Shown: positions 1-36,146, numbered from the stretch's first letter. The stretch is DNA of 64,000 nt from Planctomycetaceae bacterium (GCA_027487735.1 JAIYDA010000130.1:1930-65929), one strand, 5' to 3'. Numbers and translations are program-made. Notes: generated by a model not told the origin, from the letters alone.

Positions 1-1378
1 GCCAGAAGATGTCCAGGTTCGCCTTGTCGCGCTTCATCAGCTCGTCATAGTCAAAGGCTCGCCAGCGTCCTTCGGGTCCGACGCCGCTTTTCCCTTCCGC
101 CTCCGCCCATGTCGGCTTTCTCGTGTGCCGCCCGTCCGGCTTGTAGCACGCCACAAAATCGTCGAGGTCGGCCCGTTTCAGCGGTCGCTCCTTCTGCGTG
201 AAATGCATGTTGGTCCGCAGGTCATAGACCCACAGCTTCTTCGTCCACGGTGCTTCTTGCGCAGGCTTCGCGTCGAAGAACAACACATTGGCCTTCACGC
301 CCTGCGCATAGAAGATGCCCGTGGGGAGGCGCAATAGCGTGTGCACGTCAAACTGCTTCAGCAGGTTGCGCCGCACCGTCTCCCCCGCGCCGCCCTCGAA
401 GAGCACGTTGTCGGGTAGCACGACCGCCGCGCGGCCGTTCACTTTCAGCAGCGTCTTGATGTGCTGTACGAAGTTGAGCTGCTTGTTCTTGGTTGTCGTC
501 CAAAAATCTTGCCGCTCGTATGAGTTGTCTTCCTTCTCCAGCTCGCCGCCCTCGCCGACGATCGAGATGCTGCTCTTCTTGCCGAAGGGCGGGTTGGTCA
601 GAATCATGCTGAACCGCTCGCCGGGGTCGCTGGCAAGCGAATCCACCCCGCTCTTCACCGGGCACGGGTCCGCGTCGATGCCGTGCAGGTACAGATTCAT
701 GATGCACAGCCGCGCCGTGGCGGCGACCAATTCCCAGGCGTGCACGAAGTTCCGTTTGAGGTGCCTCTTTTGGTCCGGGTCCAGGTCGTTGCCGAAGTGG
801 TCCACGACGTACTTGTGCGCCGCGAGCAGGAACCCGCCCGTGCCCGCCGCTGGATCGCAGACGGTGTCCTCGGGCGTCGGGCGCATGACATCGACCATCG
901 CCTTGATCAGTTCCCTCGGCGTGAAGTACTGACCCGCGCCCTTGGGGCTCTCCGCCGCCGAGCGTGCCAGCAGCCCCTCATAGATGTCCCCCTTGATGTC
1001 CGAGTCCATCCGCGTCCACTGCTCGGCTCCGATCAGGTCCACGATCAGCCGCTTGAGCGTGGCCGGATTCTGGATCTCCATCCGGGCCTTCTTAAAAATC
1101 TCACCGAGCATCCCCGGCTTGTTCCCCAGTGTTTCGAGCACAAGGCGGTAGTGCGTCTCCAGCTCCGCGCCATCGAGCTTGAGCAGCGACTCCCACGACC
1201 ACTTCGCCGGCACGATCGCCGGCCGGTTGTACGGCGGCCGCGTCATTTCATCGGCCATCTTCAGGAAGAGCAGAAACGTGATCTGCTCGGTGTACGCCAT
1301 GTACGAAAGCCCGTCGTCCCGCAGGACGTGGGCGTAGTTCCAGGCTTTATTGACGATCTGGGAGGTTTCTGGAGGCAT
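1..1378 (-). CDS. hsdM: Type I restriction-modification N6-adenine DNA methyltransferase subunit M; 3' end runs off the window
   Basis: Absent from the ORF track because the window edge truncates it. My translation of the minus strand from the ATG at 1378-1376 gives MPPETSQIVNKAWNYAHVLRDDGLSYMAYTEQITFLLFLKMADE... The SAM motif DPAAGTGGFL and catalytic NPPFG are present. It is co-directional with hsdR/hsdS. Confidence 0.9.
   Translation of the reverse strand, partial: MPPETSQIVNKAWNYAHVLRDDGLSYMAYTEQITFLLFLKMADEMTRPPYNRPAIVPAKWSWESLLKLDGAELETHYRLVLETLGNKPGMLGEIFKKARMEIQNPATLKRLIVDLIGAEQWTRMDSDIKGDIYEGLLARSAAESPKGAGQYFTPRELIKAMVDVMRPTPEDTVCDPAAGTGGFLLAAHKYVVDHFGNDLDPDQKRHLKRNFVHAWELVAATARLCIMNLYLHGIDADPCPVKSGVDSLASDPGERFSMILTNPPFGKKSSISIVGEGGELEKEDNSYERQDFWTTTKNKQLNFVQHIKTLLKVNGRAAVVLPDNVLFEGGAGETVRRNLLKQFDVHTLLRLPTGIFYAQGVKANVLFFDAKPAQEAPWTKKLWVYDLRTNMHFTQKERPLKRADLDDFVACYKPDGRHTRKPTWAEAEGKSGVGPEGRWRAFDYDELMKRDKANLDIFW
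1326..1378 (-). repeat. Copy 1 of a 53-nt direct repeat (the true hsdM start region); partner at 2521-2573
   Basis: Ungapped hand alignment of plus strand 1326-1378 against 2521-2573 gives 37 of the first 40 and 43 of 53 positions identical. Both copies end in the complement of an ATG. Confidence 0.85.
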
Positions 1379-1386
1379 AAATGTCG

Positions 1387-2460
1387 TCACCTTGCGATGT
1401 GTGCCGGAGTGAGCGCCATCAAAGTCTTCACCGCATCAGCGCCCTTGGGCAGGAGATAGTGTCTGCGGAGCTTCCGAAGGCTGATGTAGCCGCTCGGGTC
1501 GCTCTCCCACTCGCCAGAAATCTTGCGGTAGAGGGAAAAGCACCCGCCGTCACCGACAAGTATCTTTGAGCAGTTGTGGAGTTGGTGTTTCTCGCAATAG
1601 CCGACAGCTTGCTCGACAACATCCTGGAGGGGATTGTCCATGCCCTTGGCCTCGCACACGAGCCCGCACGAGGACGGAGTTGTTGGCGCGTGCGTAAACA
1701 CGGCCAAGTCAATCTTCCGCCATTCAACCGCCAAGAGCTGCTCGGACCACCCGAGGGCGAGCATGAGCGGGAGGATCATGTGGGCGACGACCTCGTGCTC
1801 GGTCGGTCGCCCCGGCGATCGTTCCTCGCCGTACCAAGCAAGCAGGCCACGGAGTTTCCGGATTGCGCGTTCAACGTGCAGGCAAGCCTCGTAGCCTAAT
1901 CCTTCTCGAAAGAGAGCGTCGGACAACTGCTCCGGGCTGAGCGGCGCGGGCGGCACTTCTGGCAGGTCTCGAAGAGAACGGCGCGTTACCTGCGGAAGAA
2001 GGTGGCGGATAGGGTCCAGACTCGTCGCATCTTTAACGCGCGAGAACGTTGTCACTCGTGGCCGATGTTGAAACAAGCCACTCGAAGACTGGATTTGTTG
2101 GAGCGCTGCATCGTGCTGCCGTTGCCAGATGACACGGCGGCAATGCTCAAGATCCCACCCGTAGATATCGTCGAAGAGCGTGGTGTGGAAGTAGTCACTC
2201 TCCACCACACCGATGGAAAGCACGTTGTACCCAGAGCGCAGGAGCACCAAGTCACCCGACTGCACCTCGGTCGCAATTTGACGGATGTACGTGATCTTGC
2301 CCTCGCCCTCCACTTGAGCCTCTGGATTCTCGTCATAGAGGCTCGATGAATAGGGCCCGAACCGGCCCGGTCCGAGGAACATCACATCGTGATCGAGAAA
2401 CAGGCGCTGATAGCGTCGTCCCTTCTCCCCGCACGCGATTTGCCATACCTGAGGATTCAC
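1387..2460 (-). CDS. Cassette gene B: hypothetical nuclease with an unassigned N-terminal module and an HsdR_N-like PD-(D/E)xK endonuclease domain
   Basis: The ORF track gives 1387..2466 with a TTG start. I prefer the GTG at 2460, preceded by AGGAG (2468-2472) at a 7-nt spacing. The C-terminal half reads EHEVVAHMILPLMLALGW...IDLAVF...VCEAKG, the same D...ExK pattern as the N-terminus of the hsdR in this window (FADYLL...VIEAKSEG). The N-terminal ~130 aa (VWQIACGEKG...GDLVLLRSGYNVLSIGVVESDY) are unassigned. Third-position GC looks lower than in the housekeeping genes. Confidence 0.6.
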   Translation of the reverse strand: MNPQVWQIACGEKGRRYQRLFLDHDVMFLGPGRFGPYSSSLYDENPEAQVEGEGKITYIRQIATEVQSGDLVLLRSGYNVLSIGVVESDYFHTTLFDDIYGWDLEHCRRVIWQRQHDAALQQIQSSSGLFQHRPRVTTFSRVKDATSLDPIRHLLPQVTRRSLRDLPEVPPAPLSPEQLSDALFREGLGYEACLHVERAIRKLRGLLAWYGEERSPGRPTEHEVVAHMILPLMLALGWSEQLLAVEWRKIDLAVFTHAPTTPSSCGLVCEAKGMDNPLQDVVEQAVGYCEKHQLHNCSKILVGDGGCFSLYRKISGEWESDPSGYISLRKLRRHYLLPKGADAVKTLMALTPAHIAR

Positions 2461-2573
2461 TCGCAAGCTCCTAGGGAACGGCCGATGGAAACGGTTTGCG
2501 ACCGCTCCTTACTCTGTAGAACGTGGGCGTACTTCGAGGCTTTGTTGACGATCTGGGAGGAGTTAGCCGTCAT
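2457..2573 (-). pseudogene. hsdM-prime: duplicated first ~19 codons of hsdM fused to 19 unrelated codons, forming a 38-codon leader ORF coupled to gene B
   Basis: Hand translation gives MTANSSQIVNKASKYAHVLQSKERSQTVSIGRSLGACE*, compared with the hsdM start MPPETSQIVNKAWNYAHVL. Its ATG (2573) lies 4 nt after the stop of gene A. Its TGA (2459-2457) overlaps the GTG start of B (2460-2458) as GTGA. Confidence 0.6.
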
Positions 2574-2577
2574 GCGT

Positions 2578-3981
2578 TCATGCTCGATGTTCTCTTGTCG
2601 AATCAAACGACTGTGCCAGCAGGCAAGCAATCCTGTACACAGTCCAAACGCGGGATATCAACGGCACATCAGGTAGGTTCCACCCATCGCCGTTCGACCA
2701 AGACCATTTCTCCAGCGCATTTCGATCATTCGCGGCCGCCGCCGCACCAAGCTCCGCTGCCACGGACTTAATGGAAGGTGTTGCTTCGGTGGACTTCGAA
2801 ACAAACAAGGCGCACGTGCGAAGCGCATCGCAGACGATCTTGTCTCGTACCGCTTCGCGCACACACGACCAATCGAAACGGCTCTCGAGGGCATTCAACA
2901 GATCTTCAATGGCTCGAAATTCCTCGGAGTTCATGTCGACAAGCCTGGCAGCGGCCTTGTCGCGTGTAAGCAAAGAACGCGCGGACGCCCACACCTCACC
3001 AGACTCTATGGCCTTCGCGAGAAGCGTGCGTGCGCTATTGCTCGTCTCGACGACAGGCGGCTTCTCCACAGGCGCCAAGCTTTGGGCTATAGCCTCGCGA
3101 CTGAGTGCTTTCAAGATCCGTGCACGCCAGCGAACGCGCTCAAACGCTGTCAGAGATGCAACATGGCCGGAATCCCCAGTGTCCGCGTCGTTCACGGCTC
3201 GGCGGTCATACCCGTGGACGTAGAGCGACCTGGATACATAAGCCCCATTGAAAAATGCGCGCCGTTCAGGATCATCGCCATACCGACTGCACAAAGCGTT
3301 CACGAATCGACGTTGCCCATCGCTTCTGGTGTCAATGCCCATTGCAGCTTCGATGGCAGCGCAGTGCGTGGCACAGTCATGCGCAAAGCTGCCAAATAGT
3401 TGGTCATTGAAATGAGTGCGAAAGTACTGGCGAACCGCGACGATGCGGCGGTCTTGCGGATCGTGAGCCATGAGCGCGAGTAGGGCGCTCGCGTCTGCTC
3501 GGTCAACATGAAGTCGCCTTGCTCTGTCCATTCCACGGATAGAGAGGGGCGGGAACACACGAAAGTATTTGGCGCTTTCCATGGCCCTCACGTACTTTGA
3601 GTATAAAGTAACGTTTTGCGACGGGTCACTGGCGTCGCCGGGCACAGACAATCCGTAACAGGCGAATTGCTCCGCCGCAATGCTTTGACGGCCATCGTCG
3701 GCCAACCAATGCAGTACGGCTGCGATCTCCTCCATGTATCGCTGCAGCCAGTCGGGATCATCCGAGCGCACCAAAGTGCCGTAGATGGGGTCGCCGTCGC
3801 GACCTTCCCATGTGTATGGCAATGTCCGAAAAATCGTCATGTATTCCGGACGCTTGCGACCCATCCGCGTGTTCCATACCTCGTCGCTGTCGTCCAAGAC
3901 CTCCGCTTTGCCAAGTGCCAACGACTGCGCTTCACCGTGCTTCCACTGAACCGACAAGTATGGTAACCACAAGAAAATCAC
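2578..3981 (-). CDS. Cassette gene A: hypothetical protein with a candidate HEPN-type Rx4H motif
   Basis: The ORF track gives 2578..4362, but everything upstream of 3981 overlaps hsdS. The GTG at 3981 overlaps the hsdS stop (GTGA) and follows AGGAAG. An alternative ATG lies at 3864. The motif SRSLYVHG (R-x4-H) follows the helical-looking FAHDCATHCAAIEAAMGI. There is no P-loop and no recognisable R, M or S domain. Confidence 0.55.
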   Translation of the reverse strand: MIFLWLPYLSVQWKHGEAQSLALGKAEVLDDSDEVWNTRMGRKRPEYMTIFRTLPYTWEGRDGDPIYGTLVRSDDPDWLQRYMEEIAAVLHWLADDGRQSIAAEQFACYGLSVPGDASDPSQNVTLYSKYVRAMESAKYFRVFPPLSIRGMDRARRLHVDRADASALLALMAHDPQDRRIVAVRQYFRTHFNDQLFGSFAHDCATHCAAIEAAMGIDTRSDGQRRFVNALCSRYGDDPERRAFFNGAYVSRSLYVHGYDRRAVNDADTGDSGHVASLTAFERVRWRARILKALSREAIAQSLAPVEKPPVVETSNSARTLLAKAIESGEVWASARSLLTRDKAAARLVDMNSEEFRAIEDLLNALESRFDWSCVREAVRDKIVCDALRTCALFVSKSTEATPSIKSVAAELGAAAAANDRNALEKWSWSNGDGWNLPDVPLISRVWTVYRIACLLAQSFDSTREHRA

Positions 3982-5588
3982 TTCTTGGTACTTCCTAGGG
4001 AGTGGACCTTTGCTTTGACCCGTGAAGCCGGAGGACAGGAACGTGGCGATGAACCTGCTTGAGTGTCCACGACAATCGGACGGTCGCTCGGGTCTTGCGG
4101 CACGAGTTCGCCCTCGAAGGCGCGTTTGAGGATGGCTTGGCGGAGGCGGGCGGCGCGCTGGAGGGCGTGCTCGACCTGCGTCTCGGCGGCGTCGGCGACG
4201 GAGAGGCGGCGATCGACCTCGGCGACGATCTCGGCTTGTTCGGCGAGCGGCGGCAACGGAAGCGGAAGCGCCCGCGACATGCTCACCGAAATGTTGTGCT
4301 GTCCAGCCGTTGCCTTCGCCTGAGAGGTGATCCATTGCAGAACCGGATCGGCGAGCAGGCATGTCGCCAGATAACGGTTAGTGATGCCTGGGCCTGCGCG
4401 GAAAGACACGATAGCTTGGTTCGTGTTCCATTCCGGGTAGAGGTCCGGCACGATCGACACTTTGCCCAGCGGAGGCCCCACGATGTTCATCAGCACATCG
4501 CCCGGAATCGCACGAGAGCGATTCAGTCTCCCGCGGTGTGTCTGCCGCGCGATGAATGTGGGCTTGATTGTGAAGTCCAATGCGCCGGTGAAGGTGAGGT
4601 TGTAGACCTTGATGAACGGCACTTCTCCGCTCCCCGCCTGCATCTCGTCAGGCGGCGGCGTGCTTCCGCTCTCGATACTCGTGCAAAGCTGAAGCGATCC
4701 CGCCCATGACCACGAGGGTGGCAGTTGGAAGGGGAATGGGGCATGGGGCGACGGCGGCTCCTCGTACTTCTCCCTCCACCCCTTCGGTGGCGTCTTCCCC
4801 GCCTCCTTGAACTTGCGGAGTTGGTCCTGCTCCCACTTGGCGCGGCGTTCGGCGAGGATGCGTTCGAGGAGCTTGGCGGCGGGCTCGGTGGCCGGGTGCC
4901 GCGTGCGCCATTCCTCGGTCAGACGCCCCTCGACGGCGGCCTTGAGCACGGCCGCGCGGTACCGCTTCAGGTTCGCCCTCACCCGCTCCAACGCGGCCAC
5001 GCCCGCATCGAGGTCGGAGAAGAGTTCCTCGATCTTGGCAACGATGCGGCGCTGTTCGGCAACAGGTGGCAGACCGATGCTCAGCGCCTTCGCCTCCGGA
5101 AAGTAGATCGTTGTGTGCGTGGTGCCCTTACCGAACTTGAGCAGGCTATCGCGCTCGGCGATTAGCAAGTACATCAAGAACTCTGGCGCGAGCGCATCGG
5201 AACACTTCCAGTTCACGAAGTCTTGGCTCGTCGCCATCGGTCGGTCCATGATGGTGACGTAGCCGACGGATGCCGTTCGAGAGAGGCAAACAGTGTTCGC
5301 TGGCAGCAGCACAGATGCCGAGTTGTCCAACCCGGCCTGCGTCACCGTCTGAAAGGTGGAGGTGATCCTGCGCCCGTGGAATACGCGGGCGTCCTTGATG
5401 CCGATCCACGCGATGTCGCCGTCCCAGTATTTCGGATGATTGCGACTCGGCGTATGGCCCGTCGCCATCTCCGCGACATCAGTGAGGCGCACCCACTTCC
5501 AGCCGCGGGCGAGCGGCATGTCGGGGATGCCCACCGCGATCGCGTACTTCCCTGGCGTAACGTCTGATGTGGCGGCGCGACCACTCAT
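3978..5588 (-). CDS. hsdS: Type I restriction-modification specificity subunit S (two target-recognition domains)
   Basis: The conserved-region signatures LPPVAEQRRIVAKIEELFSDLDAGVAALERVRANLKRYRAAVLKAAVEG and LPPLAEQAEIVAEVDRRLSVADAAE each follow a variable domain. The ATG at 5588 overlaps the hsdR stop (ATGA). Confidence 0.9.
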   Translation of the reverse strand: MSGRAATSDVTPGKYAIAVGIPDMPLARGWKWVRLTDVAEMATGHTPSRNHPKYWDGDIAWIGIKDARVFHGRRITSTFQTVTQAGLDNSASVLLPANTVCLSRTASVGYVTIMDRPMATSQDFVNWKCSDALAPEFLMYLLIAERDSLLKFGKGTTHTTIYFPEAKALSIGLPPVAEQRRIVAKIEELFSDLDAGVAALERVRANLKRYRAAVLKAAVEGRLTEEWRTRHPATEPAAKLLERILAERRAKWEQDQLRKFKEAGKTPPKGWREKYEEPPSPHAPFPFQLPPSWSWAGSLQLCTSIESGSTPPPDEMQAGSGEVPFIKVYNLTFTGALDFTIKPTFIARQTHRGRLNRSRAIPGDVLMNIVGPPLGKVSIVPDLYPEWNTNQAIVSFRAGPGITNRYLATCLLADPVLQWITSQAKATAGQHNISVSMSRALPLPLPPLAEQAEIVAEVDRRLSVADAAETQVEHALQRAARLRQAILKRAFEGELVPQDPSDRPIVVDTQAGSSPRSCPPASRVKAKVHSLGSTKK

Positions 5589-8410
5589 GCCACCAACCTC
5601 TCATTCATCTCGCTCAGCAGCGTCGGCAGCGACTCGCCGAAGACCTCGTACGCCGCGCCCAGCCCGCCCATCTGCTTGAAGGGCACATCCTCCAGCGCCT
5701 CGGCTTCGATGGCCAGCGATGCGGCGATGTGGTCCTTGATTGCATCGAGCCACTTGCGCTGCTGGGGGGCGAACGTCACTCCCGCCTTCGCTTTATCCGC
5801 CAGCCACGCCGCGTACCGCTCCTCCACGACCTCCTCAACCGGTACCAGCGGCGTCTTGCCATCGATCGCGTGTTTGACGAGCGCGACAAGATCGACGAGC
5901 TGTTTGCCACCTTTGCCCTTGGTAGTGCCTGTCTCAACGGCCTCGAAGGCGTTCCACAAGCGGCCGACTGTTTCGGGCTTCCTGGCATCGACAAAGAACG
6001 GTGACCCACTCAGTTTCAACGCGAGTTCCTTGACCTGTCCATACCGCAGGCCTGCACGGTAGGGCCGACTGTAGAGGATACGGATTGCCTCGATCTCGTC
6101 CTTGTTCTCTTCGACGAATGTCTTGAATGAAGTGACAACCGAACGTGCCTTTTCGAGTGCGGCCGCATCGAACCCTACTCGAACAAGCGAGTCATGATTG
6201 ACTTCGTCAAAAACCTGCTCGGCGGCGGCCTTTACACGGAGGATGGTGTTGCGGAGCTTTGGGTTGAGGAACGGCTTGAGTGCCTCGGCCATCGCCGCCC
6301 GCTCGACCTGTTCGATCTGATGCTCGGTGGGTTCTTGACCTGGCGGAAGCTTGAGAGCTTCTGCGGCTCGCGCGGCGTTGATGTCGGTGTCGATACTCGC
6401 GAGCAGCGCGGCTGCAAGGCTTGAGAGGCCCTTGCCGCCCGCTTCCTTGCTGATCTCTGCTTTGCGATCATCGTCAAGCTCGCGATCGAGTCGCGCGAGG
6501 CGAGAGGCGAGCGTTGAGACGAGATCGTCACTCACTGCACCTGCTGCAACGGTGTTGAGAACTTTCTCGAGCGCAACCGACGGCTGGCGGTCGAGGGGTT
6601 TGGAGAGGGACTTCTCAGATTCGGTGACGCCGACGGCATCGACGATGACGAAGTGGGTCTTTTTGCCGCCTGGAGCGTGCTTCGTCACAACCTCGAGCAT
6701 GTCGGGGTGAATAATGCGACACCCTCGCCCCTTCATTTGCTCAAAGTAAGCAGCCGAAGTGATGTTCCTCATGAATAACAAACACTCAAGAGGTTTTACA
6801 TCCGTTCCCGTTGCAATCATGTCAACAGTGACGGCGACGCGAGGAAAGTGCTGGTTGCGAAAATCAGACAACAACTCATCGGGCTTTTTGCCAGTAGACT
6901 TACTTGTGATCTTTTGACAGAAATCGTTTCCTTTGCCGAACTCTTCTCGGATAATGCGAGTGATATCGTCAGCGTGCAAGTCAGTCTTGGCGAAGACGAG
7001 CGTCTTGGGACATTCGTATGTGCCAGTTTCTGCATCGAAACGGCCTGGAAAGATCTCCGGCAGCTTATCTCGAAACGTGCGAATCACCAGACGTATCTGA
7101 CTCTCGTTTACGACATCTCGGTCGAGTTGGGTGCCGGTGTACTGGACATCATCGTCGAGCGCTTCGTATCGCTTCTTGCGGGTTGTGCGATCACGGCGGG
7201 GCACGAGATAGTCTGGCTTTTTCGCCAGCGTCGCCCCGTCCTTCGTGACTTTGGTTTCGATGCGATACACGTCGTATCCGACATTGACGCCATCGAGCAC
7301 GGCTTGCTCGTGCGTGTACTCCATCACGAGGTTGCCGTTGAAAAAACCGATGGTTTGGGCGCTTGGAGTGGCGGTCAGACCAACGAGCGTGGCGTCGAAG
7401 TACTCCAACACCTGACGCCACACGTTGTAGATGGAGCGATGACACTCGTCGATGATGATGAAGTCGAAGAACTCTGGGGGAATCTTGTCGTTGTACACAA
7501 CGGGCAGAGGCTGCTTGATGAGAGCGTTTGCGGCCTCAAACATCGACGACTCTTCGCCCGTGTCATCAAAGGCTTCCTCCCCTTTGAGGATCGAGTAGAG
7601 CCGCTGGATCGTGGTGATGACGACCTTCGAAGCCGGATCAATCGAGTTCTTCTTGAGATGCTGAACGCCGTACTCCTCCGTGAACTTGTATTGGTTGTAT
7701 GGCGAGGAAAACTGCTGAAACTCATTCAGCGTTTGGCGTCCCAGGTTGTTCCGGTCTACGAGAAAGAGAACGCGCTTTGCACCACCAAACTTGATGAGTC
7801 TATAGGCAATGTTGCAAGCGGTGAATGTCTTGCCCGCACCCATGACCATTTGAATGAGAGCGCGCGGATGGTCGGCAGCGAGTGATCGCTCGAGATTCGT
7901 TATTGCCGTAACCTGCTTCTCCCAGAGCCGTGAAGCGTCCAACGGGGGCATGCCGCGAAGACTGGCTCGAAGCTGCGAATCGAGGCTCGCGAGTCTCGCC
8001 AACTCTTCCGGGCGATGGAATGCAAAGACCTCGCGGCTGCGAGGGTGCGGATCAAGAGTATTGGTGAAGTGGGTAACCGCCCCGGTGGACTCGTATGCAA
8101 ACGGCAACGGTGTCCCTTCGGGCATCCACCTCGGAAGGCCCTTGGGCAACCCCGCCGTGTACTTTGCCGACTGAGTTTCGACGCCCCGAAGGGTGTGGCC
8201 CTCAGACTTGGCCTCAATGACCCCAATCGCCTTCCCCATCGAGTACAGGAGATAGTCGGCAAAGCCGGTCGCGAGCGGAAACTCGCGTACCGCGACCCCG
8301 ATGCCCGCTCGAAGGTCCATGTCGCGATAGTCCTGCACACTCCAGCCGCACTGCGCCAAGATCCGATCGATCGTCTGCCGCGCGAGTTGTTCCGGGGAAG
8401 ATGGTGGCAC
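5585..8410 (-). CDS. hsdR: Type I restriction enzyme R subunit (HsdR_N nuclease plus SF2 helicase/translocase)
   Basis: N-terminus is QTIDRILAQCGWSV...FADYLL...VIEAKSEG. Walker A is MVMGAGKTFT, the DEAH-like box is IIIDECHRS, and the helicase C motifs are MIATGTDV and QMKGRGCR. The start codon at 8410 is GTG. Confidence 0.9.
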   Translation of the reverse strand: MPPSSPEQLARQTIDRILAQCGWSVQDYRDMDLRAGIGVAVREFPLATGFADYLLYSMGKAIGVIEAKSEGHTLRGVETQSAKYTAGLPKGLPRWMPEGTPLPFAYESTGAVTHFTNTLDPHPRSREVFAFHRPEELARLASLDSQLRASLRGMPPLDASRLWEKQVTAITNLERSLAADHPRALIQMVMGAGKTFTACNIAYRLIKFGGAKRVLFLVDRNNLGRQTLNEFQQFSSPYNQYKFTEEYGVQHLKKNSIDPASKVVITTIQRLYSILKGEEAFDDTGEESSMFEAANALIKQPLPVVYNDKIPPEFFDFIIIDECHRSIYNVWRQVLEYFDATLVGLTATPSAQTIGFFNGNLVMEYTHEQAVLDGVNVGYDVYRIETKVTKDGATLAKKPDYLVPRRDRTTRKKRYEALDDDVQYTGTQLDRDVVNESQIRLVIRTFRDKLPEIFPGRFDAETGTYECPKTLVFAKTDLHADDITRIIREEFGKGNDFCQKITSKSTGKKPDELLSDFRNQHFPRVAVTVDMIATGTDVKPLECLLFMRNITSAAYFEQMKGRGCRIIHPDMLEVVTKHAPGGKKTHFVIVDAVGVTESEKSLSKPLDRQPSVALEKVLNTVAAGAVSDDLVSTLASRLARLDRELDDDRKAEISKEAGGKGLSSLAAALLASIDTDINAARAAEALKLPPGQEPTEHQIEQVERAAMAEALKPFLNPKLRNTILRVKAAAEQVFDEVNHDSLVRVGFDAAALEKARSVVTSFKTFVEENKDEIEAIRILYSRPYRAGLRYGQVKELALKLSGSPFFVDARKPETVGRLWNAFEAVETGTTKGKGGKQLVDLVALVKHAIDGKTPLVPVEEVVEERYAAWLADKAKAGVTFAPQQRKWLDAIKDHIAASLAIEAEALEDVPFKQMGGLGAAYEVFGESLPTLLSEMNERLVA

Positions 8411-8954: not shown

Positions 8955-9155
8955 ATGGCACAAGGAATGGAACTGTTGACGAGTCGAGAGTTGGCGAAGC
9001 ACCTTCGGGTGAAGCCCGAGACTGTGCGAGACTGGGCGCGGCGCGGGCGAATCCCCGTGCTGCGGCTTTCGCCAAAAGTGATCCGCTACAACGCCGACGC
9101 TGTAATCGCGGCGCTGTTGGCCACGCCAGTGGAGGGGGTGTCACATGGCAAGTGA
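8955..9155 (+). CDS. Excisionase/AlpA-type helix-turn-helix DNA-binding protein
   Basis: MAQGMELLTSRELAKHLRVKPETVRDWARRGRIPVLRLSPKVIRYNADAVIAAL. Alternative ATG starts lie at 8928 and 8967. The 8739 start in the ORF track is unlikely. Confidence 0.7.
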   Translation: MAQGMELLTSRELAKHLRVKPETVRDWARRGRIPVLRLSPKVIRYNADAVIAALLATPVEGVSHGK

Positions 9156-9390
9156 TGCAAGCACCTCAGCGACGACGGCCCCGTTGTTGATTGACGCCAA
9201 GGAGACGTGCGCCCTGCTGTGCCTTGGCGAACGGCGTGTTTGGGAGCTGTCGAACTGTCGCGCCATCCCGTCATTCAAGATCGGCAAGTCGCGTCGGTAC
9301 TGCCCGGATGAACTGCGAGCGTGGATTCGTGCCGGATGCCCCACCGAACCTGGCGCGGGCGATCGACTTCGGAAGGCGGTGCGCCCATGA
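9145..9390 (+). CDS. Second excisionase-family HTH DNA-binding protein
   Basis: LLIDAKETCALLCLGERRVWELSNCRAIPSFKIGKSRRYCPDELRAWI. It overlaps the previous gene by 11 nt and the next by ATGA. Confidence 0.7.
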   Translation: MASDASTSATTAPLLIDAKETCALLCLGERRVWELSNCRAIPSFKIGKSRRYCPDELRAWIRAGCPTEPGAGDRLRKAVRP

Positions 9391-11951
9391 CCCTGACGCG
9401 GAACCACGCGACCACCGCATCTAGGCCTGAAGGGTGGTGCGGCATGAGCGACCCCGTACAACGAATCCTCACAGCCCTCCGCGACCACGGCCACGAACCC
9501 CGCAAGGCGGGCGCGGGCTGGACTTGCAACTGTCCGGCCCACGATGATCGCGCCCCTTCCCTTTCAATCCGAGAGGGCGACGACGGCCGCGCGTTGGTGC
9601 ATTGCCACGCCGGTTGCACCGTCGATGCGGTGTGCGACGCGCTCGCGCTGCGACCCTCCGACCTGTTCGCACGCGACCCGAGTGGGCGGAACGGACACGC
9701 ACCCAAGTCGCGGCGACGTGGCGACGGCGACGAAACTACACGCAAGCCCGCGCGCGGCGGGGATTCTGTCACCGTCGCCAGTGACGCCACGGACGGGCGT
9801 ACGTTCCGCACGGCCCGCGAAGCCGTCGCCGAGTTGGAGCGGCGACACGGCCCACGATCGACATACTGGACCTATCACAACGCGGCGGGCGAGCCCGTGG
9901 GGCTGGCGGTGCGATGGAACACGCCCACCGGGAAAGAAATGCGCCCGGTGTCGCGGAAGGCGGACGGGTCGCGCTGGTACATCGGCGGGATGCCCACACC
10001 CCGACCGCTGTACGCGCTGCCCGAAGTGCTAGCGACGCCACCGGGAGGGCGAGTGTGGGTGTGCGAGGGCGAGAAGGCGGCGGACGCGGCCCGAGCAATC
10101 GGACTGCTGGCAACAACAAGCCCGCACGGCGCGAAGTCGGCAGCGAAGGCGGATTGGTCGCCGTTGGCTGGGCGCGAGGTTGTGATCCTGCCCGACCATG
10201 ACGACGCAGGCGAGGCGTACGCCGACGACGTGGCGCGGCTGGCGACAGCTGCGGGCGCGAGGTCGGTGAGGGTGGTTCGGCTGGTACAACTATGGGCAGA
10301 GATGCCCGAAGGGGGCGATATGGCGGACCTGCTTGAGCATCGCGGCGGGGAAGTGGACGGGACACGCGCGGCACTTGAGGCCCTCATCGACGCCTCCGAG
10401 GCGCGCAGTGTGGAGCCCGAGGCGAGAGAGGTTCCAGCGTTCAAACCCTTCCCGGTTGAGGTACTGCCCGAGCCGCTGCGCGCGTTCGTTATCCAGGCGG
10501 CAGATGCGATCGGGTGTGATGCGTCATTCGTGGCGTTGCCCCTGCTGTCTGGGCTCGCATCATCGATCGGGAACACCCACCGCATCGAGTTGAAGCGCGG
10601 ATGGACCGAGCCCGCGATCGTTTGGGCGGCGATTGTGGGCGAGAGCGGTACATCGAAGTCGCCCGCGATGGAGCTGGCCCTTCGTGCGATTCGCAAGCGG
10701 CAAGGCGCGGCGATGAAGGAACACGCCGAAGCGATGAAGCAGTACGAGGGTGCGCTCGCCCTGTACGAACGCGACTCGGGGAACTGGAAGAAGTCCAAGT
10801 CAAAAGAGCCCCCACCCGCGAAGCCCGACGCCCCGATCGCGGATCGGTGTTGGACCGACGACGCGACCACCGAAGCCCTTGCAGTTTTGCTGCAACAAAG
10901 CCCGCGCGGATTGCTCATGGTGCGCGATGAACTCGCCGGGTGGTTCAACTTCGACCGCTATGCGGGCGGCAAGGGCGGCGGCGACGCCGCGAAGTGGTTG
11001 GAGATGTTCGGCGGTCGCGAAATGGTGGTGGATCGCAAAGGGGGCGGCATGCTCTACGTGCCCCGCGCGGCAGTATCGATCGCAGGCGGTATCCAACCGG
11101 CGACGCTCCGGCGCGCGCTGGGGCAGGAACACCGCGACAACGGACTCGCGGCTCGGCTGCTGCTGGCCCATCCCCCCCGCAAGCCCAAGAAATGGACCGA
11201 AGCCGACATACAGCCCCACACAGAAGCTGCGCTGGCGGCGGTGTTCGATCGGCTCTTCGGACTGACGATGGAAACTGGCGACGAAGGCGACGAACGGCCC
11301 CGAGTCGTGACGCTCGCCGACGATGGAAAGTGGGCGTGGGTGCGGTTCTATAACGAACACGCGGGCGAGCAGGCGACCCTGTCGGGCGACGAGGCGGCAG
11401 CGTGGTCGAAGCTCGAGGGGTATGCGGCGCGGATTGCGTTGGTGGTTCACCTCACCCGCTGCGCAGCTGGCGATCCCACGATCGACGATCGGACCAAGGT
11501 TGACGCGTCGAGCGTCTCGGCAGGCGTCGTGCTAGCCCGATGGTTTGGTGACGAGGCCCGACGCGTCTACGCGATGCTTGGCGAGTCGGACGAAGAGCGG
11601 GCATTGCGCGAGCTGGTGGATTGGATCAGGCGCAAGGGCGGCACCGTGAGCGTGCGCGATCTGACGCGTGGACCGCGCGAGTATCGCAACGCTGAAAAGG
11701 CGAAGAAGGCACTCGGAGAACTGGTGACGCTGGGCGAGGGGCGGTGGGAAATCGATACCCACGCTGGCGGACGCGGGCGTCCTGTGGATCGGTTCCGGCT
11801 TGTCCAGCGTGGTGACACTGGTGACGGTGACACAAATGGAGGAAATGCGGCCGAGTATGGTATTTCTGTCGCCGTCACCACCGACGCCGATCGCAAGATG
11901 ACCACCGGCGCACGGGGAACTTTCGGGGATTGGCGCGCGGTGAATCGATGA
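9387..11951 (+). CDS. Island primase/replication protein: zinc-binding N-terminus, Toprim domain, DUF3987-like C-terminal domain
   Basis: Zn motif is CNCPAHDDRAPSLSI...VHCHAGC. Toprim is VWVCEGEKAADA...ILPDHDDAGEAYA. The DUF3987-like region is AAIVGESGTSKSPA...CWTDDATTEALAVLL...VRDELAGWF. I chose the ATG at 9387 (ATGA overlap with the upstream stop) over the track start at 9321. Confidence 0.75.
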   Translation: MTLTRNHATTASRPEGWCGMSDPVQRILTALRDHGHEPRKAGAGWTCNCPAHDDRAPSLSIREGDDGRALVHCHAGCTVDAVCDALALRPSDLFARDPSGRNGHAPKSRRRGDGDETTRKPARGGDSVTVASDATDGRTFRTAREAVAELERRHGPRSTYWTYHNAAGEPVGLAVRWNTPTGKEMRPVSRKADGSRWYIGGMPTPRPLYALPEVLATPPGGRVWVCEGEKAADAARAIGLLATTSPHGAKSAAKADWSPLAGREVVILPDHDDAGEAYADDVARLATAAGARSVRVVRLVQLWAEMPEGGDMADLLEHRGGEVDGTRAALEALIDASEARSVEPEAREVPAFKPFPVEVLPEPLRAFVIQAADAIGCDASFVALPLLSGLASSIGNTHRIELKRGWTEPAIVWAAIVGESGTSKSPAMELALRAIRKRQGAAMKEHAEAMKQYEGALALYERDSGNWKKSKSKEPPPAKPDAPIADRCWTDDATTEALAVLLQQSPRGLLMVRDELAGWFNFDRYAGGKGGGDAAKWLEMFGGREMVVDRKGGGMLYVPRAAVSIAGGIQPATLRRALGQEHRDNGLAARLLLAHPPRKPKKWTEADIQPHTEAALAAVFDRLFGLTMETGDEGDERPRVVTLADDGKWAWVRFYNEHAGEQATLSGDEAAAWSKLEGYAARIALVVHLTRCAAGDPTIDDRTKVDASSVSAGVVLARWFGDEARRVYAMLGESDEERALRELVDWIRRKGGTVSVRDLTRGPREYRNAEKAKKALGELVTLGEGRWEIDTHAGGRGRPVDRFRLVQRGDTGDGDTNGGNAAEYGISVAVTTDADRKMTTGARGTFGDWRAVNR

Positions 11952-12208
11952 TGGGAACGCTTGCACAATCCGAAGTAATGGGGTACAGTATGAGTATGGG
12001 AAGCATCACGGGAACACTTCGAAGGGCCTTGGAGCAGTGCGGGCAAACCCGCTATGCGGTCAGCAAGGCGACGGGGATACCCGAATCCACGTTGTCGCGG
12101 TTCGTGGCGGGTGGAAAGCCCTTACGGGGCGAAAACATGGACAAACTGGCGGACTACCTGGGGCTGGTGTTGGTGGCAAAGGCGGGCAAAGCTCGAAAGG
12201 ACCGGTGA
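11948..12208 (+). CDS. Small XRE-like HTH protein
   Basis: RYAVSKATGIPESTLSRFVAGGKPL. The ATG at 11948 overlaps the primase stop. Later in-frame ATGs are also possible starts. Confidence 0.55.
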   Translation: MMGTLAQSEVMGYSMSMGSITGTLRRALEQCGQTRYAVSKATGIPESTLSRFVAGGKPLRGENMDKLADYLGLVLVAKAGKARKDR

Positions 12209-12211
12209 GAC

Positions 12212-13738
<1,527 letters not shown>

Positions 13739-35948: not shown

Positions 35949-36023
35949 GCCGAGGTAGCTCAGCTGGTTTAGAGCGCTGGATTCATAACCCGGAGGTCGG
36001 CGGTTCAAGTCCGCCCCTCGGCA
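35949..36023 (+). tRNA. tRNA with CAT anticodon (elongator Met, or Ile2 if lysidine-modified)
   Basis: Hand-folded 75-nt cloverleaf: GCCGAGG-TA-GCTC-AGCTGGTTTA-GAGC-G-CTGGA-TTCATAA-CCCGG-AGGTC-GGCGG-TTCAAGT-CCGCC-CCTCGGC-A. The 1-72 pair is intact, so it is not an initiator. One 31-39 mismatch. Confidence 0.85.
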
Positions 36024-36146
36024 CTTGCCTGGTTCTGTTTTGCTCGGTTCTACTTTGCTTGGTTCTCCTTGAGTTGGTGCTGTGGTGGGCACGTGCGGCG
36101 CGCTGCGTTCGCGTAAAGGCGTTTGGGGCTGCGAGCGGAGCCGCGG

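What the first reader, a model, noticed from the sequence alone, without database searches (positions are those of the whole stretch)
1..8410. Type I R-M operon with two unrelated genes wedged between hsdS and hsdM as one coupled unit
The minus strand reads hsdR (8410-5585) > hsdS (5588-3978) > A (3981-2578) > 38-codon leader (2573-2457) > B (2460-1387) > hsdM (1378-<1). The junctions are ATGA, GTGA, a 4-nt gap, GTGA and an 8-nt gap. A and B are therefore built to be translated together with the R, S and M subunits. Neither resembles an R-M subunit: A carries an Rx4H (HEPN-like) motif and B a PD-(D/E)xK nuclease core. There is an established precedent in the anticodon nuclease PrrC, which sits inside the EcoprrI type I R-M locus and is kept latent by the R-M complex; HEPN and nuclease genes also recur in R-M loci. 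My inference is that A plus B form a guarded backup (abortive-infection or modification-dependent) arm of this R-M system. I do not recognise this pair as a named defence system.
Basis: partly seen in the sequence, partly recalled or inferred. Interest (0 to 1): 0.85.

Follow-up and report, generated by a model that had tools for sequence, protein, structure and literature searches.

The report
Mosaic type I restriction operon, two add-ons
A bacterial restriction-modification operon on a mobile island has picked up two separate extra defence genes (a likely nuclease against chemically modified phage DNA, and an unnamed possible RNA-cutting toxin). They are not a matched pair, and the layout is a known way of stacking defences.

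Summary
On the minus strand, hsdR, hsdS, A, a 38-codon ORF, B and hsdM lie with exactly the junctions described. A has an invariant Rx4H motif and B an invariant D…ExK core.

In 22 related loci they never co-occur outside this window.
- **B** (Pfam DUF8426; 383 relatives) folds confidently as an N-terminal EVE/YTH-like modified-base reader plus a C-terminal PD-(D/E)xK nuclease. That is the known architecture of type IV, modification-dependent restriction enzymes. It occurs alone, beside BREX or Cas9, or just upstream of hsdM in this R-M lineage.
- **A** belongs to a small family (81 clusters) absent from Pfam, NCBIfam and PADLOC. Its confident model has no fold match. Relatives sit beside methyltransferase genes of type I, BREX and DISARM-like systems, beside GmrSD, or alone.
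- **The "leader"** is a decayed copy of the hsdM 5′ end. It looks like the scar of a join between an hsdS–A–hsdM locus (as in L007) and a B–hsdM locus (as in L001/L002).

Stacking of this kind has precedents (PrrC, TgvAB in Vibrio, HEPN genes in R-M operons). The locus is a new member of a known kind. Family A is the one part worth testing.

The parts
1..1378 (-). hsdM, the type I N6-adenine methyltransferase subunit. Its 3' end runs off the window.
   Evidence: N6_Mtase E 8.7e-65 plus HsdM_N. PADLOC MTase_I E 6.5e-171. 88-91% identical to hsdM of L001, L002, L003 and L007.
1387..2460 (-). B: a DUF8426 protein of 357 aa. Residues 1 to about 160 form an EVE/YTH-like PUA reader domain and about 215-357 form a PD-(D/E)xK nuclease (D251, E270, K272). 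Predicted type IV, modification-dependent restriction endonuclease.
   Evidence: 383 homologues, precomputed Pfam PF28530, named DUF8426. AF2 model pLDDT 94.4. Foldseek top hit is the VcaM4I EVE-HNH enzyme (E 2.9e-4), followed by EVE, YTH and restriction-endonuclease-like folds. Invariant residues. Weak PADLOC PDC-S02 hits in up to 17 of 49 members per model.
2457..2573 (-). The 38-codon ORF. Its 5' part (about 2517-2573) is a decayed copy of the hsdM 5' end and marks a recombination scar. Its 3' part contains B's AGGAG ribosome-binding site.
   Evidence: 45 of 57 nt identical to the window's hsdM 5' end. DNA alignment. tblastn of the peptide hits hsdM codons 1-20 in four loci.
2578..3981 (-). 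A: a 467-aa member of an unnamed family. It has an N-terminal beta-rich domain (1 to about 160) and an all-helical domain (about 160-467) with invariant R251-S-x3-H256. Predicted HEPN-like effector.
   Evidence: 81 homologous clusters, best 36% identity, full length. Alignment A3. AF2 model pLDDT 90.1. No hit in Pfam, NCBIfam, PADLOC, PDB or BFVD.
3978..5588 (-). hsdS, the specificity subunit with two target-recognition domains.
   Evidence: Methylase_S in two stretches. PADLOC Specificity_I E 1e-103.
5585..8410 (-). hsdR, the restriction and translocase subunit of the EcoAI/EcoEI-like type.
   Evidence: ResIII E 1e-37 and EcoEI_R_C E 1e-32. PADLOC REase_I. NF008521 and NF046051 match below their cut-offs.
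8955..9155 (+). Excisionase/AlpA-type HTH gene of the island, divergent from the operon.
   Evidence: HTH_17 E 1.2e-9.
9321..11951 (+). DUF3987 protein belonging to the island module.
   Evidence: PF13148 E 2.4e-72.
12212..13732 (+). Tyrosine integrase of the island.
   Evidence: Phage_integrase E 3.9e-11.
13665..13738 (-). tRNA-Lys (CTT), the probable integration site of the island.
   Evidence: ARAGORN.

Best explanation
The locus is a mosaic, multi-layer defence operon carried on an integrative island at tRNA-Lys.

**Layer 1.** An ordinary type I R-M enzyme (HsdR, HsdS, HsdM) cuts DNA that lacks the host's m6A mark.

**Layer 2.** B is a self-contained type IV, modification-dependent restriction endonuclease.
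- Its N-terminal EVE/YTH-like PUA barrel is predicted to flip out and read a modified base.
- Its C-terminal PD-(D/E)xK domain (D251, E270, K272) is predicted to cut the DNA.
- It would therefore catch phages whose hypermodified DNA escapes layer 1.
- By inference, it does not read the m6A that HsdM places on host DNA.

**Layer 3.** A belongs to an unnamed family of about 460 aa whose helical domain carries an invariant HEPN-type R-S-x3-H. I predict it is a metal-independent RNase effector of the abortive-infection or toxin type, recruited repeatedly next to the methyltransferase genes of methylation-based defence systems.

**How the parts came together.**
- A and B are independent modules that meet only in this locus.
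- An hsdS-A-hsdM operon (as in L007) was joined to a B-hsdM unit (as in L001 and L002).
- That join left the first 20 or so codons of an hsdM gene as the '38-codon leader'.

**Shown and inferred.**
- Shown: gene identities, folds, conserved residues, the genomic contexts of relatives, and the relic.
- Inferred: the enzymatic activities, the substrate of B, RNase activity for A, and any regulation by the R-M complex.
For: **Anatomy and R-M identity:**

**B**
- The model is confident (pLDDT 94.4).
- Foldseek returns VcaM4I, other EVE domains and YTH domains for the N-terminal half. For the C-terminal half it returns restriction-endonuclease-like folds, an HsdR N-terminal fragment and DrdV.
- The order of secondary-structure elements in residues 5-112 matches the EVE barrel pattern quoted in PMC7641849.
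- E223, D251 and E270-x-K272 are invariant and sit on an alpha-beta-beta-beta-alpha-beta core.
- A relative of the C-terminal half in Photobacterium is named by PGAP 'HsdR N-terminal domain-containing protein'.
- B relatives stand alone (L017-L019, L022), lie beside BREX (L004/L005), beside Cas9 (L021) or beside a helicase conflict island (L020), or are embedded upstream of hsdM (L001-L003).

**A**
- The family is real and full length.
- R251 and H256 are invariant. The motif sits at the C-terminal end of helix 238-256. Near-invariant E211 lies in the preceding helix, and an insert helix lies between them. This matches the HEPN description in PMC3710099.
- A relatives sit between hsdS and hsdM (L007) and between PglXI and BrxH (L011, L016).
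- Others sit behind a DrmMI-like methyltransferase and a LmuB-like ATPase (L010), and behind an MmeI-TRD protein (L014).
- Others sit beside GmrSD (L013, L015) and beside an FRG/PDC-S15 protein (L012).

**Independence of A and B, and the scar:**

**Precedents:** TgvAB inside a type I operon (PMC11411939). HEPN families embedded in R-M and Pgl operons (PMC3710099). EVE-PD(D/E)XK enzymes and links between EVE domains and type I R-M (PMC7641849).
Against: - No biochemical or phenotypic data exist for any of these proteins.
- A has no profile or structural match to any HEPN family. There are only two isolated sub-threshold hits (HEPN_Apea 0.053 and Csx1/Csm6 0.052), each in one of 39 members. Foldseek finds nothing. 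The HEPN call therefore rests on the motif, its position in the helices and the gene contexts.
- Three of the eleven A relatives (L006, L008, L009) sit among housekeeping genes.
- B's Foldseek E-values are modest (3e-4 to 1e-2) and its whole-protein TM-scores are low, because the matches are to single domains.
- The B-hsdM linkage is seen in only one R-M lineage, so it may reflect a single ancestral event.
- The census is small: 22 loci, gathered by pattern-limited searches.
Confidence: 0.62

Rival explanations
1. A and B together form one dedicated two-gene backup (abortive-infection or modification-dependent) system. The type I R-M complex holds it latent, as EcoprrI holds PrrC.
For: The junctions inside a single operon are tight. 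A has a HEPN-type motif and B a nuclease core. The PrrC precedent is described in PMC3710099.
Against: A and B never co-occur in 22 related loci. The same R-M lineage carries A alone (L007) or B alone (L001-L003). Most relatives of each gene have no hsd genes nearby. The hsdM relic between A and B points to a secondary join. A has no detectable ATPase domain.
Confidence: 0.07
2. B is an accessory subunit of the type I enzyme rather than a free-standing type IV enzyme. Its EVE-like domain would give the HsdR/M/S complex the ability to recognise modified DNA, as Bell et al. proposed for type I systems linked to EVE domains.
For: B lies directly upstream of hsdM with a conserved 8-nt junction in the window, L001 and L002/L003. 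Its nuclease domain is of the HsdR N-terminal type. The proposal is made in PMC7641849.
Against: Most sampled B relatives (L004/L005, L017-L022) have no hsd genes within 8 kb. B carries its own complete catalytic triad. The hsdM linkage is confined to one closely related R-M lineage.
Confidence: 0.12
3. A is not a HEPN RNase. It would be a different kind of protein, such as a sensor, regulator, anti-anti-restriction factor or selfish hitchhiker. Its conserved R and H would serve another role, and the conserved N-terminal domain would carry the real activity.
For: No HEPN profile or fold match was found despite a confident model. The N-terminal domain has its own invariant residues (R44, P45, G68) and near-invariant D31, E104, K129 and R149. 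Three relatives lie in non-defence neighbourhoods.
Against: R-S-x3-H-G is invariant and sits at the end of a helix. An upstream conserved Glu and an insert helix fit the HEPN layout. Eight of eleven relatives lie inside or beside defence systems.
Confidence: 0.3

Closest known systems
TgvAB inside the Vibrio cholerae VPI-2 type I R-M operon (PMC11411939)
   Same: Two non-hsd genes interrupt a five-gene type I operon. At least one layer is a modification-dependent restriction activity that complements the R-M. The embedded genes are far commoner outside type I clusters than inside them.
   Different: TgvA and TgvB are a true two-protein system of the GmrSD family. Here the two inserts are unrelated, independent single genes: an EVE-PD-(D/E)xK protein and a HEPN-like protein. 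Nothing here has been tested experimentally.
PUA/EVE-nuclease type IV restriction enzymes (VcaM4I EVE-HNH; predicted EVE-PD(D/E)XK enzymes; PMC7897488, PMC6765204, PMC7641849)
   Same: B has an N-terminal EVE/YTH-like barrel fused to a nuclease domain, works as a single chain and lives in defence islands. VcaM4I is its best structural match.
   Different: B's nuclease is a PD-(D/E)xK domain of the HsdR N-terminal type, not HNH. No EVE or other Pfam model in the local copy detects B by sequence. It is catalogued only as DUF8426. The modified base it reads is unknown.
PrrC/RloC anticodon nucleases in type I R-M loci (PMC3710099)
   Same: A gene carrying a HEPN-type Rx4H motif is embedded between hsd genes, suggesting a second-line RNA-targeting defence.
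   Different: A lacks the N-terminal ABC ATPase and has an uncharacterised beta-rich domain instead. It has no detectable sequence or fold similarity to PrrC. Latency under the R-M complex is not shown.
Other HEPN families embedded in R-M or Pgl/BREX operons (Abi2/AbiD/AbiF, AbiU2, ApeA, pEK499_p136; PMC3710099)
   Same: The range of contexts is the same: R-M operons and Pgl/BREX operons. The Rx4H motif is conserved.
   Different: No member of family A matches the Pfam models of these families above noise. A is much larger (about 460 aa) and has an extra conserved N-terminal domain.

Membership tests
Type I restriction-modification system | HsdR with an SF2 helicase/translocase core, HsdS with two target-recognition domains, and HsdM as an N6-adenine methyltransferase, all encoded together | tested here: met
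   Pfam, PADLOC and NCBIfam hits. All three genes lie on one strand with overlapping junctions.
Type IV (modification-dependent) restriction endonuclease, PUA/EVE-nuclease class (B) | A PUA-superfamily (EVE/YTH/SRA-like) modified-base reader domain | tested here: met
   Foldseek returns VcaM4I (E 2.9e-4), PH1033, Atu2648 and many YTH domains. [quoted passage not shown] No sequence-profile hit to EVE was found.
Type IV (modification-dependent) restriction endonuclease, PUA/EVE-nuclease class (B) | A fused nuclease domain with intact catalytic residues | tested here: met
   E223, D251 and E270-A-K272 are invariant in 49 sequences. Restriction-endonuclease-like, HsdR N-terminal and DrdV structural hits. 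PGAP name of a relative.
Type IV (modification-dependent) restriction endonuclease, PUA/EVE-nuclease class (B) | Works without a cognate methyltransferase (occurs as a stand-alone gene) | tested here: met
   L004/L005 and L017-L022 have no detectable HsdM relative within 8 kb by tblastn, and no methyltransferase is adjacent to B.
Type IV (modification-dependent) restriction endonuclease, PUA/EVE-nuclease class (B) | Cleavage depends on a modified base in the substrate DNA | not testable with these tools
   Needs enzyme assays on modified and unmodified DNA.
HEPN superfamily (A) | A conserved Rx4-6H motif with a polar residue after the R | tested here: met
   R251-S252-x3-H256-G257. R and H are invariant, and S is conserved in at least 90% of 39 sequences.
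HEPN superfamily (A) | The motif lies at the end of helix 3 of a four-helix bundle, with an upstream acidic residue in helix 2 and often an insert between helices 2 and 3 | tested here: inconclusive
   The predicted helices 178-188, 199-214 (with E211), 222-234 (insert) and 238-256 (motif at its C-terminal end) fit the description. Model coordinates could not be superposed on a HEPN structure.
HEPN superfamily (A) | Detectable profile or fold similarity to an established HEPN family | tested here: not met
   Pfam on 39 members gives one hit, HEPN_Apea at 0.053. PADLOC gives one hit, Csx1/Csm6 at 0.052. Foldseek against PDB and BFVD finds nothing below E 0.4. The profile search against PDB sequences finds nothing.
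PrrC/RloC anticodon nuclease (A) | An N-terminal ABC/Rad50-like ATPase fused to the HEPN domain | tested here: not met
   No ATPase domain was detected. The N-terminal 160 residues are predicted to be beta-rich.
PrrC/RloC anticodon nuclease (A) | Held latent by physical association with the type I R-M enzyme | not testable with these tools
   Needs co-purification and activation assays.
Dedicated two-gene embedded system (TgvAB-like) formed by A and B | The two genes co-occur as a conserved unit across genomes | tested here: not met
   None of 22 related loci carries both genes.

The most novel reading that the evidence does not exclude
Family A is a new class of defence effector that 'guards' DNA methyltransferase-based immunity in general.
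- It would be held inactive through contact with the methyltransferase module (HsdM/S, PglXI or DrmMI-like).
- It would be released as a HEPN-like RNase when a phage anti-restriction protein disables that module.
- In effect this is a PrrC-like logic without the ATPase, reused across type I R-M, BREX and DISARM-like systems.
- The unmatched N-terminal domain would be the sensor.
Probability: 0.12. Interest if true: 0.75.

Novelty: new member of a known kind. Interest (0 to 1): 0.38.

Why it matters
- The locus shows how defence layers are assembled by cut-and-paste inside one type I operon. It preserves a visible recombination scar, and closely related operons (L001, L002, L007) show the same two insertion slots filled with different cargo.
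- It gives DUF8426 a concrete and testable function: an EVE/YTH-like reader fused to a PD-(D/E)xK nuclease, acting as a type IV restriction enzyme.
- It flags a small family (A) that is absent from Pfam, NCBIfam and PADLOC. Its relatives are repeatedly wedged next to the methyltransferase genes of type I, BREX and DISARM-like systems. That makes A a reasonable candidate for a new defence gene.
- None of this changes current concepts. Embedded type IV and HEPN genes in R-M operons are already documented.

Tried and rejected
1. **A as an orphan.** The word-indexed search found only A itself, and again when run with the profile. The exhaustive HMMER search then found 81 homologous clusters, so the orphan idea was dropped.
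2. **Naming A.** I tried Pfam, NCBIfam and PADLOC on the whole protein, on all 39 family members and on the two halves. I also tried a profile search against PDB sequences and Foldseek against PDB and BFVD. All were negative.
3. **A shared junction sequence.** A TCCCTAGGA 9-mer lies upstream of both the A and B starts. It might have meant that the 3' half of the relic derives from the hsdS tail. The local alignment score was reached by 111 of 500 shuffles, so I treat it as chance.
4. **Phage origin.** Pattern scans of IMG/VR found no relative of A or B.
5. **Plasmid records.** A has no match. B has a 32%-identical relative on the Cupriavidus metallidurans CH34 megaplasmid, where the held table has no annotation, and a relative of its C-terminal half in Photobacterium.
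6. **Internal signals.** The promoter and terminator scan found no enrichment.
7. **Failed look-ups.** The first related-loci run with the wide alignment A3 failed for lack of a conserved stretch and was rerun with the closer set A4. The exact-match look-up of the window's own B protein found no record.

Full report
**1. The observation**

The minus strand of window 1-8410 carries six consecutive ORFs:
- hsdR, 8410-5585
- hsdS, 5588-3978
- A, 3981-2578
- a 38-codon ORF, 2573-2457
- B, 2460-1387
- hsdM, 1378 to beyond position 1

The three R-M subunits are unambiguous. HsdR carries ResIII and EcoEI_R_C, HsdS carries two Methylase_S repeats, and HsdM carries HsdM_N and N6_Mtase.

A simple consensus scan finds no excess of promoter- or terminator-like sites, and none at a junction.

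Both start codons are supported by the N-termini of homologues.

**2. The 'leader' is a relic**

The first 19 residues of the 38-codon ORF (MTANSSQIVNKASKYAHVL) are a diverged copy of the HsdM N-terminus (MPPETSQIVNKAWNYAHVL).
- At DNA level, 45 of the first 57 nt match the window's own hsdM. Similarity then decays.
- By tblastn the peptide hits exactly codons 1-20 of hsdM in L001, L002, L003 and L007.
- B has its own AGGAG 8 nt upstream of its GTG, and part of that short upstream stretch is shared with L001.

The ORF is therefore a recombination scar, not a purpose-built coupling device. It may still be translated.

**3. What B is**

B has 383 full-length relatives, mostly from Planctomycetota and Verrucomicrobiota metagenomes. 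They are catalogued as PF28530, DUF8426. The local Pfam copy, NCBIfam and a profile search of PDB sequences find nothing.

The AlphaFold model is confident, with pLDDT 94.4 and pTM 0.89. Foldseek against the PDB returns:
- the EVE-HNH type IV enzyme VcaM4I as the top hit (E 2.9e-4);
- then EVE/PUA proteins (1wmm, 1zce, 2gbs) and many YTH m6A readers for the N-terminal half;
- restriction-endonuclease-like folds (9y1l, 3ijm), an HsdR N-terminal fragment (3h1t) and DrdV for the C-terminal half.

Further support:
- E223, D251 and E270-A-K272 are invariant in 49 sequences and lie on an alpha-beta-beta-beta-alpha-beta core.
- PGAP names a Photobacterium relative of the C-terminal half 'type I restriction enzyme HsdR N-terminal domain-containing protein'.
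- Members give weak but recurrent PADLOC hits to the candidate defence family PDC-S02.

EVE-PD(D/E)XK fusions are a described class of predicted type IV enzyme, and EVE domains are known to associate with type I R-M loci (PMC7641849; PMC6765204).

**4. Where B occurs**

| Loci | Identity to B | Context |
|---|---|---|
| L001, L002, L003 | 80-83% | Immediately upstream of hsdM in the same R-M lineage (hsdR 78-81%, hsdM 89-91% identical). The 8-nt junction is the same. No A. |
| L004/L005 | 70% | Beside a BREX locus |
| L020 | 75% | Beside a large SF1 helicase, in a region with conflict-system domains |
| L021 | 72% | Beside a Cas9 locus |
| L017, L018, L019, L022 | about 50% | A lone gene near TA modules, IS elements or recombinases |

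B behaves as a self-sufficient single-gene module. Its link to hsdM is confined to one lineage.

**5. What A is**

The word-indexed search found only A itself. The exhaustive search then found 81 homologous clusters. The best is 36% identical, and the matches are full length and start at residues 1-6.
- The alignment (A3) shows invariant R44, P45, G68, R251 and H256.
- The motif reads R-S-x3-H-G.
- The model is confident (pLDDT 90.1, pTM 0.90). It has a beta-rich N-terminal domain (1 to about 160) and an all-helical remainder.
- The motif sits at the C-terminal end of helix 238-256. Near-invariant E211 lies in helix 199-214, and an extra helix (222-234) lies between them.

This agrees with the HEPN description in PMC3710099: the motif at the end of helix 3, an acidic residue in helix 2, and inserts between helices 2 and 3.

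Every direct test of HEPN membership failed, however. These were Pfam on all 39 members, PADLOC, a profile search of PDB sequences, Foldseek against PDB and BFVD, and Pfam on the split domains. 'HEPN-like' is therefore an inference from motif, topology and context.

**6. Where A occurs**

Eleven related loci were recovered.

| Loci | Context |
|---|---|
| L007 | hsdR-hsdS-A'-hsdM in the same R-M lineage as the window. No B. |
| L011, L016 | BrxC, an AlbA_2 protein, PglXI, A', then BrxH, with very strong PADLOC scores |
| L010 | DpdE/DrmD-like helicase, DrmMI-like methyltransferase, LmuB-like ATPase, then A' |
| L014 | Behind a protein with an MmeI target-recognition domain |
| L013, L015 | Directly upstream of GmrSD |
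| L012 | Directly downstream of an FRG / PDC-S15 protein |
| L006, L008, L009 | A lone gene among housekeeping genes (aminotransferase and amylase; DnaK and ClpB) |

Eight of the eleven relatives are in defence contexts. Five of those (L007, L010, L011, L014, L016) lie within one gene of a methyltransferase gene or a methyltransferase-associated target-recognition gene.

**7. A and B are not a pair**

None of the 22 loci carries both genes. Neither family turned up in viral contigs.

The simplest history is that an hsdS-A-hsdM operon (L007 type) was joined to a B-hsdM unit (L001/L002 type). The join kept about 20 codons of one hsdM.

The lineage has two cargo slots:
- **Between hsdR and hsdS:** empty in the window and L007, DUF4160 in L001, and a 237-aa unknown protein in L002.
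- **Between hsdS and hsdM:** A, B, or in L001 a 258-aa PDC-M68A-like endonuclease.

**8. Setting**

The operon is cargo of an integrative island.
- An HTH_17 excisionase-like gene (8955-9155), a DUF3987 gene and a tyrosine integrase lie divergently upstream.
- They end at tRNA-Lys, 13665-13738.
- Operon GC is 0.57-0.64 against 0.657 for the window.

**9. Mechanism and comparison**

The best reading is three stacked and largely independent layers:
- type I R-M against unmodified DNA;
- B as a type IV enzyme against hypermodified DNA;
- A as a probable HEPN-like RNase effector.

This matches the logic shown experimentally for TgvAB inside the Vibrio cholerae type I operon (PMC11411939). It also matches the logic long proposed for HEPN genes in R-M and Pgl operons (PMC3710099).

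The PrrC analogy holds for position and motif only, because A lacks the ATPase. The alternative that B is an accessory subunit of the type I enzyme is not excluded, but B's many hsd-free occurrences make it less likely.

**10. Verdict**

- The locus is a new member of a known kind.
- B is a recognisable type IV architecture hidden under a DUF name.
- A is a family absent from every library searched here, with good contextual evidence for defence. It is the only part that could lead somewhere new.
- Interest is moderate to low (0.38).

Noticed in passing
window 8955-13738: The R-M operon is cargo of an integrative island. An HTH_17 excisionase-like gene (8955-9155, +), a DUF3987 gene (9321-11951, +) and a tyrosine integrase (12212-13732, +) lie upstream of it. 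The integrase ORF's 3' end overlaps tRNA-Lys(CTT) at 13665-13738 (-). Operon GC is 0.57-0.64 against 0.657 for the window.
   Followed up: partly
L001 7027-9963; L002 7400-8113; L007: The same hsdRSM lineage has two variable cargo slots. Between hsdR and hsdS, L001 has DUF4160 and L002 has a 237-aa unknown protein. Between hsdS and hsdM, L001 has a 258-aa PDC-M68A-like endonuclease plus B, L002 has B alone, and L007 has A' alone.
   Followed up: partly
L010 5981-9311: In a DISARM-like locus, the A relative directly follows a 664-aa ATPase that resembles LmuB and PDC-M68B. The S|M slot protein of L001 matches PDC-M68A. This hints that A could sometimes act as the effector partner of an SMC-like ATPase.
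   Followed up: no
L012 5830-6657; L004 5761-6597: FRG-domain proteins lie next to an A relative (L012, where PADLOC calls it PDC-S15) and near a B relative (L004, Pfam FRG only).
   Followed up: no
L016 3730-5093: The A relative inside this BREX locus is split into two tblastn pieces (3730-4086 and 4092-5093). This is probably a frameshift or a pseudogene.
   Followed up: no
L019 15680-16264: A second, truncated DUF8426 gene (194 aa) lies beside transposase genes, about 7 kb from the full-length copy.
   Followed up: no
P0020: One B-family protein also has hits to RAMA (PF18755) and DUF4357 (PF14267). In L002, a separate HSDR_N/RAMA protein lies upstream of hsdR.
   Followed up: no
window 35949-36024: A second tRNA gene, tRNA-Met(CAT), lies elsewhere in the window. 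The rest of the window (about 14-64 kb) was not examined.
   Followed up: no
L023 (Cupriavidus metallidurans CH34 megaplasmid NC_007974.2, 2212019-2213032): A full-length relative of B, 32% identical, occurs in a betaproteobacterium. The family therefore extends beyond the Planctomycetota and Verrucomicrobiota. The held table has no annotation for this region.
   Followed up: partly
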